Shown here: positions 6,001 to 9,000 of the stretch, in pieces
How the letters are laid out: the number at the start of each line of letters is the position of its first letter
How positions within the stretch are numbered: the first letter of the stretch is position 1
Source of the DNA: Escherichia coli
GTDB lineage: Bacteria > Pseudomonadota > Gammaproteobacteria > Enterobacterales > Enterobacteriaceae
Direction: 5' to 3' (one strand)
Assembly: GCF_044324785.1 (NCBI RefSeq)
Contig: NZ_CP172127.1
Length of the DNA: 64,000 nt
Made by a program: the position numbers

Positions 6001-9000
6001 TGGTACCCTTCTCAACCGCTACTGGGACGATCGCGATACGCCACGACCAGAGTCATGGGTGGAAGATATTGCCACCGCCAAAAGCAATCCGAATCGACCT
6101 GCCACTGAAATTTACCGCGACCTGCGCTCTGCCGCTGCGTCTGGCTGGGATTTCAGCTCGCGCTGGATGGACAACCCGCAGCAGTTAAATACCTTACGCA
6201 CCACCAGCATCGTACCGGTCGATCTGAACAGCCTGATGTTTAAAATGGAAAAAATCCTCGCCCGCGCCAGCAAAGCTGCCGGAGATAACGCAATGGCAAA
6301 CCAGTACGAAACGCTGGCGAATGCCCGTCAAAAAGGGATCGAAAAATACCTGTGGAACGATCAACAAGGCTGGTATGCCGATTACGACCTGAAAAGTCAT
6401 AAAGTGCGCAATCAGTTAACCGCGGCCGCCCTGTTCCCGCTGTACGTCAATGCGGCAGCGAAAGATCGCGCCAGCAAAATGGCGACGGCGACGAAAACAC
6501 ATCTACTGCAACCAGGCGGCCTGAACACCACGTCGGTGAAAAGTGGGCAACAATGGGATGCGCCAAATGGCTGGGCACCGTTGCAGTGGGTCGCGACAGA
6601 AGGGTTACAAAACTACGGGCAAAAAGAGGTGGCGATGGACATTAGCTGGCACTTCCTGACCAATGTTCAGCACACCTATGACCGGGAGAAAAAGCTGGTG
6701 GAAAAATATGATGTCAGCACCACCGGAACAGGGGGCGGCGGTGGCGAATATCCATTACAGGATGGCTTTGGCTGGACCAATGGCGTGACGCTGAAAATGC
6801 TGGATTTGATCTGCCCGAAAGAGCAACCGTGTGACAATGTTCCGGCGACGCGTCCACTCAGTGAATCAACAACACAGCCGGTAACACAAAATGAGGCGGA
6901 ACCTACGCCTTAACTTTACTGTATATCGAGCAATGCCATTACGTGCATAAAATTGGCATTGCTCTTTCTTCACCACGAAATACCAAATACTACTCTTTCT
7001 ACGGTCTATGCCTTTATTTTCTTTTATTAGAGAAGATTTTAATTTTATTTTATCAACTTGTTAATCATTACACCTCTATTTATATTTTCCCCCACTCCCC
7101 ATTCTCCCTGACAATTTTCTTGTGGAACAAAGTGTTATTTAAGAAACAAGCAAATCATTCTGTCTCTTTAGACAAATTTTGACATCAAACATGATCTTTT
7201 TCGCTATATGTGTAAGTATATAGCGGTTTTAATTATCAGGATATTACTTATGTCACTAACCAGACGGAGGTTTACACAGATTCTTGCGTCGACATTGTTC
7301 CTGCATCATCTGCCGTCCTTTGCACAATCAGTCAAATTCTGGGCCTCACTGACGCTTCCCGAAGCCCAAAACATTACACGCATCGTCAGCGCAGGCGCGC
7401 CCGCCGATTTACTATTGCTGGCTGTCGCGCCAGAAAAAATGGTCGGTTTTTCCTCTTTTGATTTTGCCCGTCAGGCATTAATTCCATTGCCAGAGCACAT
7501 TCGCCAGTTCCCCAGACTGGGACGACTCGCCGGGCGCGCCAGCACACTCTCGCTGGAAGGGCTTATGGCGTTACATCCCGATTTGGTCGTTGATTGCGGC
7601 AATACGGATGAAACCTGGCTCTCCCAGGCACGGCAGGTTAGCGAACAGACACAAATACCCTGGTTATTGCTTAACGGGAAACTGGAACAATCAGCAGAAC
7701 AGTTAACAACGCTTGGCAAAACGTTAGGCGAAGAGTATCGCGCCGCAGAACAAGCCAATCTCGCCAGCCGCTTCGTTGGTGAAGCTCAGGCATTCGCCAC
7801 CTCACCCGCCGCTAACCTCCGCTTTTATGCTGCGCGCGGTCCTCGAGGGCTGGAAACGGGCTTACAAGGTTCGTTGCATACCGAGGCGGCGGAATTATTA
7901 GGTTTGCATAACGTCGCGCAAATAGCCGATCGCCACGGTCTGACACAGGTTTCCATGGAAAATCTCCTGCGCTGGCAGCCGGATATTATTCTGGTTCAGG
8001 AGGCCGTTACTGCAGATTTTATTCGTCGTGATCCTCTCTGGCAGGGCGTGAAAGCGGTTGCGGAACAACGCATCTTATTTTTAAGTGGCCTGCCCTTTGG
8101 CTGGCTGGATGCCCCGCCGGGAATCAACCGTCTTCTGGGATTACGCAGACTTCACGCCTGGCTGGATCCCGCCATCAATCGCCAGTTTAAAAGTGACATG
8201 CAGCATTACGCCCAACTGTTCTGGCATTGCCCATTAAGTGACGCCGACTATCAAAAATTGGTGGCGAGCTAATGAGAACCGTAAACGGATGTATTTTGCT
8301 GCTGGCAGCTATCAGTATCACTTTTGCCGCCGTAAGTGGGGCTTATCATCTCGATATACAGCAACTGCTGGCGCTCATTCTTCGTCAAGAAAATGTTCCT
8401 GTGCAGGAACAAATTGTCTTCTGGCAAATCCGCGTGCCGCGTATTCTTGCTGCGCTGTTTCTGGGCGCGGCGCTGGCAGGGGCCGGAACCACCTATCAGG
8501 GAATGTTCCGTAATCCCTTAGTGTCACCGGATATTTTAGGCGTCTCCGCCGGTGCCGGACTTGGTGCCTGCGCGGCAATCCTGTGGGGATTATCCATTGT
8601 TTACATCCAGCTGTACGCATTTTGCGGCGGGCTGATGGTGGTCGCGGGCGTCTGGTTGATTACGCGTCGGGTGACCCGCCACGATCCGATCTTAACCCTG
8701 GTGCTGGTAGGCATTGCGTTAGGAACGTTGTGCGGAGCGGGGATATCGCTAATAAAAACGCTGGCCGATCCTTACACCCAGTTACCGTCAATTACCTTCT
8801 GGTTGCTGGGGGGGCTGTCCACCGTGACCTTACGCGATCTCTGCTATGCTGCACCGATCATTCTCACAGGCTCCTTGCCCCTGTTTTTTCTCCGCTGGCG
8901 CATGAATTTACTCACGCTTTCCGACGACGAAGCCCGTTCGCTGGGACTGAACGTGACGCGTCTGCGCTTTGGATTAATTGTCTGCGCCACACTAATCACC

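What the first reader, a model, noticed from the sequence alone, without database searches (positions are those of the whole stretch)
7202..7225. Perfect palindrome immediately upstream of the uptake operon start
cgctatat-N8-atatagcg (8-bp arms) lies 25 bp upstream of the first ATG of the operon, inside an AT-rich 280-bp leader. Size and position fit a dimeric regulator operator overlapping the promoter. No regulator gene is encoded in the island, so a trans-acting chromosomal factor would be implied.
Basis: seen in the sequence. Interest (0 to 1): 0.35.

Follow-up and report, generated by a model that had tools for sequence, protein, structure and literature searches.

The report
Molybdate-sensor (ModE) operator before uptake operon
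The palindrome is very probably the docking site of ModE, the cell's molybdate sensor, so this island of pathogenic E. coli, annotated as iron uptake, is most likely switched on by molybdenum shortage rather than iron shortage.

Summary
The palindrome CGCTATAT-N8-ATATAGCG is at 7202-7225, with 24 nt between it and the ATG (7250) of the first gene of the treA-ymgE island. This island is the 'prrA-modD-yc73-fepC' cluster, O157 OI#55. An 8-bp inverted repeat is not rare on its own. This one, however, matches the published E. coli ModE consensus ATCGnTATATA-N6-TATATAnCGAT at 19 of 22 specified positions. That is as good as the best consensus matches at the modA, moaA, dmsA and napF promoters. It scores 23.9 bits on a matrix built from those four sites, and nothing reached 20 bits in 5 Mb of AT-rich random sequence. 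The box, with unchanged spacing, lies before the orthologous operon in Escherichia, Citrobacter, Raoultella, Enterobacter, Serratia, Pectobacterium, Proteus, Morganella and Providencia, and before molA in Pasteurellaceae. Four genera carry a second box directly before the TonB-dependent receptor gene. There is no base-pair covariation, no conserved T-run, no riboswitch and no convincing Fur box. The ABC permease's closest solved relative is H. influenzae MolB, a molybdate importer, and the operon encodes ModD. The best reading is a ModE-molybdate operator that overlaps the core promoter and represses the operon when molybdenum is plentiful. ModE binding and the transcription start remain untested.

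The parts
7200..7227 (.). ModE box, 28-bp extended form TTCGCTATATGTGTAAGTATATAGCGGT. The core palindrome is 7202-7225.
   Evidence: 19 of 22 specified positions of ATCGnTATATA-N6-TATATAnCGAT. 23.9 bits on a matrix from the four K-12 sites, against 12.9 for the next best hit in the window. None at or above 20 bits in 5 Mb of AT-rich null sequence. Conserved in all orthologous loci.
7202..7210 (+). Left half-site CGCTATATG (consensus CGnTATATA). It probably also carries the -10 element.
7217..7225 (+). Right half-site TATATAGCG (consensus TATATAnCG, a perfect match).
7179..7184 (+). Candidate -35 hexamer TTGACA, 17 bp upstream of the box core.
   Evidence: Invariant in all seven E. coli lineages aligned. 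A TTGAnn hexamer sits at the identical distance in Citrobacter, Raoultella, Enterobacter, Serratia and Edwardsiella. The transcription start is not mapped.
7238..7241 (+). Shine-Dalgarno AGGA, 8 nt before the ATG.
   Evidence: conserved in Escherichia.
7250..8272 (+). Class III periplasmic substrate-binding protein (annotated 'iron ABC transporter substrate-binding protein'), a distant MolA homologue.
   Evidence: HI_1472 is the second-best PDB hit; 27% identity to Pasteurellaceae MolA.
8272..9252 (+). FecCD/BtuC-type permease, closest to MolB.
   Evidence: HI1471 at 6e-65, ahead of FhuB, HmuU and BtuC; 41% identity.
9249..10007 (+). ABC ATPase, MolC-like.
   Evidence: (HI1470 is the best bacterial importer ATPase hit).
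10017..10829 (+). Class I SAM-dependent methyltransferase ('yc73').
10826..11680 (+). ModD, a quinolinate-phosphoribosyltransferase-like protein.
   Evidence: (TIGR01334, 499.6 bits).
11706..13676 (+). TonB-dependent outer-membrane receptor ('prrA'). It starts 26 nt after modD, so it is probably co-transcribed in E. coli.
   Evidence: In four other genera this gene has its own ModE box.
6928..6965 (+). treA terminator hairpin (GAGCAATGCCA...TGGCATTGCTC followed by a T-run). It marks the upstream limit of the leader.
   Evidence: invariant.

Best explanation
The palindrome is an operator for ModE, the homodimeric molybdate-sensing transcription factor encoded elsewhere on the chromosome. The box (7200-7227) lies directly downstream of a TTGACA -35 hexamer, so it covers the -10 and start region of the operon's promoter. 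When molybdate is plentiful, ModE-molybdate binds and blocks RNA polymerase. When molybdenum is scarce, ModE leaves and the six-gene operon is transcribed: a MolA/B/C-like type II ABC importer, a SAM methyltransferase, ModD and a TonB-dependent receptor. Shown here: the sequence match, the fixed spacing, conservation across at least ten genera, the presence of modE, and the Mol-like and ModD gene content. Inferred: actual binding by ModE, the direction of control (repression, by analogy with modABC and from the site's position), and the transcription start.
For: (1) The E. coli ModE consensus ATCGNTATATA-[N6]-TATATANCGAT is quoted in PMC545781. The window site has 3 mismatches in 22 specified positions. 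The best matches in the known K-12 ModE-target promoters have 4 (modA), 4 (moaA), 3 (dmsA) and 2 (napF). The core pattern with at most 1 mismatch occurs once in the window.
(2) On a matrix built from those four sites the window site scores 23.9 bits. The next best hit in 64 kb scores 12.9, and leave-one-out scores of the known sites are 16.7-26.9. No hit of 23.9 or more occurred in 3 Mb of random sequence, and none of 20 or more in 5 Mb of 29%-GC random sequence.
(3) In all 21 orthologous loci sampled from Escherichia, E. albertii, Enterobacter and Providencia, the best hit of the whole locus lies 9-30 bp before the SBP start where that start is known. In L019 the nominal 120 bp reflects an alignment that begins at residue 36. 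The proteins have diverged to 44-65% identity with gene order kept, and the rest of the leader is unalignable outside Escherichia.
(4) In seven further genera fetched through ModD, a box again precedes the first gene of the operon (14.4-32.5 bits). Proteus, Pectobacterium, Morganella and Serratia carry a second box (25.9-33.7 bits) immediately before the TonB-receptor gene.
(5) 29 distinct boxes give the consensus nTCG[C/T]TATATA-N6-TATATA[A/G]CGAT, with no length variation.
(6) The gene content is molybdenum-related. ModD matches TIGR01334 at 499.6 bits. The permease's best solved relative is MolB of the H. influenzae molybdate importer. Pasteurellaceae molA is also preceded by the best box of its locus, and molB there is repressed by molybdate through a factor the authors called unknown (PMC4031551).
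(7) modE is present in 5391 of 5426 complete E. coli genomes.
(8) The geometry resembles K-12 modA: the box is 19 nt before the ATG there and 24 nt here.
Against: No experiment on this locus was found. There is no ModE binding assay, no mapped transcription start and no molybdate-dependent expression data for it.

The -10 element implied by the TTGACA-17 spacing (CGCTAT) is poor, so the exact overlap with the promoter is uncertain. ModE can also activate transcription (moaA, dmsA, napF).

The matrix rests on only four sites. I identified them by scanning known target promoters with the published consensus. That they coincide with the footprinted sites is from memory.

The island has long been described as iron-related (PMC1890555, PMC12928451), and iron control by another route is not excluded.

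Studholme & Pau 2003 and the RegPrecise database could not be consulted, so the site may already be listed there.
Confidence: 0.88

Rival explanations
1. The inverted repeat acts as RNA. It would be a hairpin in the 5' untranslated region, with a 10-11 bp stem, a GUAA loop and a following U-run, serving as an attenuator/terminator or an mRNA-stability element.
For: The terminator scan flags 7201-7226 followed by TTTTAATTAT. The RNA fold gives a 10-bp stem. Between E. coli lineages, G7210A and G7216A convert G-U pairs into A-U pairs.
Against: The fold is not exceptional (z = -1.95). Across 29 distinct sites, 82.8% of cells pair, against a shuffled mean of 82.9%. At the only freely varying pair, 15 of 29 sequences are unpaired. 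What is conserved is therefore the sequence of each half-site, not the pairing. The T-run is absent in Enterobacter, Providencia and Morganella. In Providencia the stem would be about 6 A-U-rich pairs around a 10-nt loop. No Rfam family matches. If the TTGACA promoter is used, transcription starts inside the repeat, so the full hairpin would not be transcribed.
Confidence: 0.03
2. It is a real ModE site, but ModE activates the operon there, or merely modulates it, rather than repressing it. This would resemble moaA, dmsA and napF.
For: ModE is a dual regulator (annotation; PMC12327845). The transcription start is unmapped. The predicted -10 is weak, and a weak -10 often goes with activation.
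Against: The box lies 24 nt before the ATG, downstream of the only good -35, as at the repressed modA promoter. In Providencia, Morganella and Pectobacterium a good TTGACn-16/17-TAAnnT or GATAAT promoter ends immediately before the box, which puts the box over the start site. The homologous H. influenzae mol operon is repressed by molybdate (PMC4031551). Uptake genes are normally repressed by their own substrate.
Confidence: 0.07
3. It is an operator for a different regulator, for example Fur as the iron annotation would suggest, or an unknown factor.
For: The island is annotated and cited as iron uptake. The leader contains Fur-like AT-rich stretches.
Against: The best Fur-consensus matches in the leader have 6-7 mismatches in 19. 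130 positions in the window are at least as good. None is conserved outside Escherichia. The palindrome's half-sites and N6 spacing are those of ModE, not Fur.
Confidence: 0.015
4. It is a chance palindrome in AT-rich, horizontally acquired DNA with no function.
For: 8-bp perfect inverted repeats are common: about 25 positions are expected per 64 kb. TATATA-type words are frequent in DNA of 30% GC.
Against: No score of 20 bits or more occurred in 5 Mb of 29%-GC null sequence. The box stays at the same place and with the same spacing in about ten genera while the surrounding leader is unalignable.
Confidence: 0.005

Closest known systems
ModE operator of the E. coli K-12 modABC promoter (CGTTATAT-TGTCGCCT-ACATAACG)
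   Same: Same half-site sequence class, the same N8 spacing between the 8-mers, and the same position just before the first gene of an ABC uptake operon (19 nt versus 24 nt to the ATG). The regulator is encoded elsewhere.
   Different: The operon it controls is a different transporter class: a type II BtuCD-like ABC importer plus a TonB-dependent receptor, a methyltransferase and ModD, not the type I ModABC. The island is present in only 2147 of 5426 complete E. coli genomes. Binding is not demonstrated here.
H. influenzae molABC (MolBC-A, HI1470-HI1472), a low-affinity type II molybdate/tungstate importer
   Same: The permease is the closest solved relative (6e-65; 41% identity). The ATPase and the SBP are homologous. 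The SBP gene comes first and is preceded by a ModE-like box in Pasteurellaceae. Transcription there is repressed by molybdate (PMC4031551).
   Different: The SBP is only 27% identical, so the ligand may differ. The enterobacterial operon adds a methyltransferase, ModD and a TonB-dependent receptor. The Pasteurellaceae and Rhizobium operons end instead with a ModA-family (PF13531) protein.
ModE sites at moaA, dmsA and napF (activated targets)
   Same: Same consensus; the dmsA site TTCGATGTATAC...TATATAGCGAA is nearly identical to the E. albertii version of this box.
   Different: From memory, those sites lie upstream of their promoters and mediate activation. This one lies downstream of the -35.
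Archaeal and alphaproteobacterial ModE/MopA 'Mo-box' (RTTATGT-N8-RCATAAY in Methanosarcina)
   Same: Palindrome with the same N8 geometry, used for Mo-dependent repression (PMC12327845).
   Different: Different half-site letters and different target genes (alternative nitrogenases).

Membership tests
ModE operator (Mo-box) | Match to the consensus ATCGnTATATA-N6-TATATAnCGAT | tested here: met
   19 of 22 specified positions, against 18-20 of 22 for the modA, moaA, dmsA and napF sites. 23.9 bits, within the leave-one-out range of the known sites.
ModE operator (Mo-box) | Fixed spacing of the two half-sites (N6 between 9-mers, equal to N8 between 8-mers) | tested here: met
   Invariant in 29 distinct orthologous boxes; the alignment is gapless.
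ModE operator (Mo-box) | A ModE regulator encoded in the same genome | tested here: met
   modE was found in 5391 of 5426 complete E. coli genomes. It was not checked individually in the other genera.
ModE operator (Mo-box) | Association with molybdenum-related genes and conservation of the site before orthologues | tested here: met
   ModD and MolB-like genes are in the operon. The box is conserved before the operon in about ten genera, and also before the receptor gene in four.
ModE operator (Mo-box) | Position compatible with control of the promoter | tested here: inconclusive
   A TTGACA lies 17 bp upstream of the core at a conserved distance. The -10 is weak and the start site is unmapped.
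ModE operator (Mo-box) | Molybdate-dependent binding by ModE and ModE-dependent expression | not testable with these tools
   Needs EMSA or footprinting and expression assays. No such data for this locus were found in the held literature.
MolBC-A type II molybdate/tungstate ABC importer | Permease and ATPase orthologous to MolB and MolC | tested here: met
   HI1471 is the best PDB hit at 6e-65, against 3e-50 for the next. HI1470 is the best bacterial importer ATPase. Enterobacterial permeases are the closest non-Pasteurellaceae relatives of MolB.
MolBC-A type II molybdate/tungstate ABC importer | SBP that binds the molybdate/tungstate oxyanion (MolA) | tested here: inconclusive
   Only 27% identity over 233 residues. 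The best PDB hit is an uncharacterised SBP, 4pag. Ligand-binding residues were not examined.
Fur box (iron-responsive operator) | Close match to GATAATGATAATCATTATC in the promoter region | tested here: not met
   The best match in the leader has 6-7 mismatches, and 130 equally good positions exist in the window.
Intrinsic terminator / attenuator hairpin | A stable G+C-containing stem kept by compensatory change, followed by a conserved U-run | tested here: not met
   No covariation. z = -1.95. The T-run is not conserved.
Moco or cobalamin riboswitch | Match to the Rfam covariance model in the leader | tested here: not met
   No match, even at an E-value of 10 in the window leader. None at gathering score in eight orthologous loci.

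The most novel reading that the evidence does not exclude
The 'prrA' TonB-dependent receptor, together with the MolABC-like importer, the methyltransferase and ModD, forms an energised two-membrane molybdenum acquisition pathway that is induced by Mo starvation. It would import either molybdate itself or, more in keeping with a TonB receptor plus a BtuCD-type importer, a molybdenum-chelate complex whose ligand is then processed by the quinolinate-phosphoribosyltransferase-like ModD and the methyltransferase. I could not find a described TonB-dependent molybdenum uptake route in Enterobacterales. It would recast a virulence-associated 'iron' island of ExPEC and EHEC as a molybdenum island.
Probability: 0.35. 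Interest if true: 0.75.

Novelty: new member of a known kind. Interest (0 to 1): 0.5.

Why it matters
The treA-ymgE island is widespread in extraintestinal and enterohaemorrhagic E. coli: 2147 of 5426 complete genomes carry it. Since the late 1990s it has been listed among putative iron-acquisition or virulence loci without functional data.

A ModE operator at its promoter, no convincing Fur box, and MolB-like and ModD genes together argue that it belongs to the molybdate regulon. Molybdoenzymes such as nitrate, DMSO/TMAO and formate oxidoreductases support enterobacterial growth in the inflamed gut and urinary tract. A second, starvation-induced molybdenum route that includes an outer-membrane TonB-dependent step would therefore be physiologically relevant.

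The result also gives a concrete candidate (ModE) for the 'unknown factor' behind molybdate repression of the H. influenzae mol operon. The prediction is cheap to test.

Tried and rejected
- **Bare-palindrome statistics.** 8-bp inverted repeats are common, so the palindrome is not significant as such.
- **Fur box.** No convincing match in the leader.
- **Rfam search.** Nothing in the leader or in eight orthologous loci, and no Moco or B12 riboswitch.
- **RNA hairpin or terminator reading.** Rejected after the covariation count and because the T-run is not conserved.
- **Divergent LacI-family gene next to the Providencia, Proteus and Morganella operons.** It sits beside genes with GntP-permease and shikimate-kinase-family (PF01202) domains, which looks like a gluconate locus. 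It is absent in L017 and L022. It is therefore a neighbour, not the regulator.
- **Simple sigma-70 scan.** It did not find the TTGACA-based promoter because the -10 is poor, and its two hits upstream (7036-7086) are at chance level. One of them lies in a segment deleted in strain NCTC9112.
- **Literature.** Ten full-text searches found the island's names and its 'iron' attribution but nothing linking it to ModE or molybdate. Studholme & Pau 2003, Tirado-Lee 2011, Grunden 1996 and Anderson 2000 are not held, so prior listing of this site cannot be excluded.
- **Second matrix hit in the window.** The hit at 48051 scores 12.9 bits in the AT-rich iraM/ycgX region and is judged to be chance.
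Full report
**Observation.** The window is E. coli chromosome. treA ends at 6913 and is followed by a strong terminator hairpin (6928-6965) and a leader of 30% GC. A six-gene island then sits between treA and ymgE. It encodes a substrate-binding protein (7250-8272), a FecCD-type permease, an ATPase, a SAM methyltransferase, ModD and a TonB-dependent receptor. The repeat cgctatat-N8-atatagcg is exactly at 7202-7225, with 24 nt between it and the ATG. The leader is found in 2147 of 5426 complete E. coli genomes. In the literature the island is the 'prrA-modD-yc73-fepC' cluster of CFT073, also O157 OI#55 / S-loop#83, described as 'proposed to be involved in iron uptake' (PMC1890555; PMC12928451).

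**Is it more than chance?** As a bare palindrome it is not. Perfect 8-bp inverted repeats with a short spacer occupy 73 positions in the window, and about 25 are expected in shuffles. The RNA fold is unremarkable (z = -1.95).

The first informative result came from other E. coli lineages. There the site reads CGATATATATGTAAATATATAGCG, and the flanking TTGACA (7179-7184) and the Shine-Dalgarno are invariant.

The decisive result came from other genera. The proteins drop to 44-65% identity and the rest of the leader becomes unalignable. A CG[C/T]TATAT-N8-ATATA[A/G]CG element nevertheless persists a few bases before the first gene in Enterobacter and in eleven Providencia genomes.

**Identification.** The element is the ModE box. 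The E. coli consensus ATCGNTATATA-[N6]-TATATANCGAT is quoted in PMC545781. I scanned the K-12 promoters known to be ModE targets (fetched). The scan recovers one site in each: modA GTCGTTATATTGTCGCCTACATAACGTT, moaA GACGCTATATACATGATTACATAGCGAA, dmsA TTCGATGTATACAAGCCTATATAGCGAA and napF ATGGTTATAAATATATTTATATAGCGAT. These have 2-4 mismatches. The window site TTCGCTATATGTGTAAGTATATAGCGGT has 3.

- On a matrix built from these four sites the window site scores 23.9 bits. The next best hit in 64 kb scores 12.9, and leave-one-out scores of the genuine sites are 16.7-26.9.
- Nothing reached 23.9 bits in 3 Mb of random sequence.
- Nothing reached 20 bits in 5 Mb generated from the 29%-GC leader itself.
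- The identity of my four sites with the footprinted sites is from memory. The consensus is from the cited paper.

**Conservation.** In every one of 21 orthologous loci, the best hit of the whole locus (up to 7 kb) is the site just before the SBP gene. I extended the sample through ModD homologues and their genomic contexts.

- Citrobacter, Raoultella, Pectobacterium, Proteus, Serratia and Morganella have the same six-gene operon with a box before the first gene (14.4-32.5 bits).
- Edwardsiella keeps only the methyltransferase-ModD pair, and that pair has its own box (16.3 bits).
- Proteus, Pectobacterium, Morganella and Serratia have a longer modD-receptor spacer, and it holds a second, strong box (25.9-33.7 bits) 11-24 nt before the TonB-receptor start codon.

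The 29 distinct boxes align without gaps and give nTCG[C/T]TATATA-N6-TATATA[A/G]CGAT. modE itself is a core E. coli gene, present in 5391 of 5426 genomes.

**DNA site or RNA hairpin?** A palindromic operator always looks like a hairpin, so I counted pairs on the 29-site alignment. 82.8% of cells pair, which equals the shuffled mean of 82.9% (331 of 500 shuffles are at least as high). At the one freely variable pair, the two 'n' positions, 15 of 29 sequences are unpaired. What is conserved is therefore the sequence of each half-site, not complementarity. The T-run that made the scan call a terminator is confined to Escherichia and its close relatives. No Rfam family, including the Moco and cobalamin riboswitches, matches this leader or eight orthologous loci.

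**Promoter geometry.** TTGACA lies exactly 17 bp upstream of the box core. A TTGAnn hexamer sits at the identical distance in Citrobacter, Raoultella, Enterobacter, Serratia and Edwardsiella. That places the -10 in the left half-site and the start near the centre of the box. The simple pattern gives the same arrangement at K-12 modA, where the -10-like TATATT lies inside the left half-site. In Providencia, Morganella and Pectobacterium a good TTGACn-16/17-TAAnnT or GATAAT promoter ends just before the box, so there the box covers the start site.

In every case the site is positioned for repression by occlusion. The E. coli -10 is weak (CGCTAT or neighbouring registers) and no start site is mapped, so this step is inference.

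**What is regulated.**
- ModD is an unambiguous TIGR01334 member. It is a quinolinate-phosphoribosyltransferase homologue.
- Among solved structures the permease is clearly closest to HI1471 (MolB; 6e-65, against 3e-50 for FhuB). The ATPase is closest to HI1470 (MolC) among bacterial importers. The SBP's second-best hit is HI_1472 (MolA).
- MolBC-A is a type II importer that takes up molybdate in H. influenzae, and MolA binds molybdate and tungstate. molB is repressed by molybdate through what the authors call an unknown factor (PMC4031551).
- In two Pasteurellaceae loci the best box of the 13-kb locus lies 22-35 bp before molA, at 14.5 and 22.9 bits. ModE is therefore a candidate for that factor.
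- The E. coli SBP is only 27% identical to MolA, and the operon includes an outer-membrane TonB-dependent receptor. The transported species may therefore be something other than the free oxyanion.
- Neighbouring genes in other genera point the same way. A TOBE/Mop gene sits beside the Pectobacterium operon, a MOSC-domain gene beside the Raoultella one, and a ModA-family gene ends the Pasteurellaceae and Rhizobium operons.
- The leader has no convincing Fur box: the best match has 6-7 mismatches in 19, and 130 positions in the window are as good.

The mechanism I commit to is ModE-molybdate repression of a Mo-starvation-inducible uptake operon. I put confidence that it is a ModE operator at about 0.88, and that its sign is repression at about 0.8 given that. 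This is a new member of a well-known kind of element.

The added value is the re-assignment of a widely cited 'iron' island to the molybdate regulon, and the implication that a TonB-dependent receptor is under ModE control. I found no paper in the held library that makes this link. The key comparative paper (Studholme & Pau 2003) and RegPrecise could not be consulted.

Noticed in passing
L030:7079-7106, L031:6894-6921, L032:6931-6958, L033:6885-6912: In Proteus, Pectobacterium, Morganella and Serratia a second strong ModE box (25.9-33.7 bits) lies in the modD-receptor spacer, 11-24 nt before the start codon of the TonB-dependent receptor gene. The receptor is therefore under ModE control independently of the ABC genes.
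   Followed up: partly
L034:4898-4925 and L035:4920-4947: The best ModE-matrix hit of each 13-kb Pasteurellaceae locus lies 22-35 bp before molA (14.5 and 22.9 bits). This offers ModE as the 'unknown factor' that Rice et al. 2014 invoked for molybdate repression of molB in H. influenzae.
   Followed up: partly
L029:5105-5132: Edwardsiella tarda has only the methyltransferase-ModD gene pair, without the transporter or receptor. The pair has its own ModE-like box (16.3 bits) and a TTGACG 17 bp upstream. This suggests the pair is an independent Mo-regulated module of unknown enzymatic function.
   Followed up: no
L036:4861-4912: Rhizobium jaguaris has a molABC-like operon ending in a ModA-family gene. 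Two adjacent Mo-box-like repeats precede it (CGAAATAT-N8-ATATAACG and CGTTGTAT-N8-ATATCATG). They score poorly on the E. coli matrix.
   Followed up: no
L031:1643-2071; L028:8892-11922: Molybdenum-flavoured neighbours: a 142-aa TOBE/Mop-domain gene immediately upstream of the Pectobacterium operon, and a MOSC-domain (YiiM-like) gene plus a second TonB-dependent receptor downstream of the Raoultella operon.
   Followed up: no
window 48051-48078: The second-best ModE-matrix hit in the window (GACTTTCTATACGTTATTTTATAACGGT, 12.9 bits) lies in the AT-rich iraM/ycgX/ymgL region. It is at a level seen by chance in AT-rich DNA.
   Followed up: partly
window 48233-48263, 63937-63961 and 44062-44080: These are the best Fur-consensus matches in the window (4-5 mismatches in 19), including overlapping matches GCTTATATTCATCATTATCATTATA near iraM/ycgX. 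They are unrelated to the finding.
   Followed up: no
L007 (NCTC9112), corresponding to window ~6975-7091: This strain lacks about 117 bp of the leader, including the only promoter-like hits of the simple scan. It keeps TTGACA, the ModE box and the Shine-Dalgarno intact, consistent with the proximal promoter being the functional one.
   Followed up: no
L004 (strain 100416), after the treA stop (window ~6918): A 13-bp tandem duplication (GCTGTATATCGAG) lies between the treA stop and its terminator.
   Followed up: no
L012-L022, about 90-170 bp upstream of the SBP gene: Providencia leaders share a conserved ~70-nt block (CTATGTTCAGCGATCT...GGATAGCAAT...TTGTTACTGATTTACATCACA) upstream of the TTGACT promoter. 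It is kept even where the neighbouring LacI-family (gluconate-repressor-like) gene is absent. Its function is unknown.
   Followed up: no
L001 13373-14352 (strain N3) versus window 8272-9252: RefSeq flags the permease gene of strain N3 as frameshifted. In the window the ORF is intact (326 aa with a normal C-terminus), so the window is not strain N3 despite the identical leader.
   Followed up: partly
Eight matches to the island's leader lie on plasmids rather than chromosomes in the complete-genome collection.
   Followed up: no
L008 (JAIJJM010000486.1): A 2.5-kb contig filed as a Collinsella MAG carries this E. coli locus at 98% protein identity. This is probably binning contamination.
   Followed up: no
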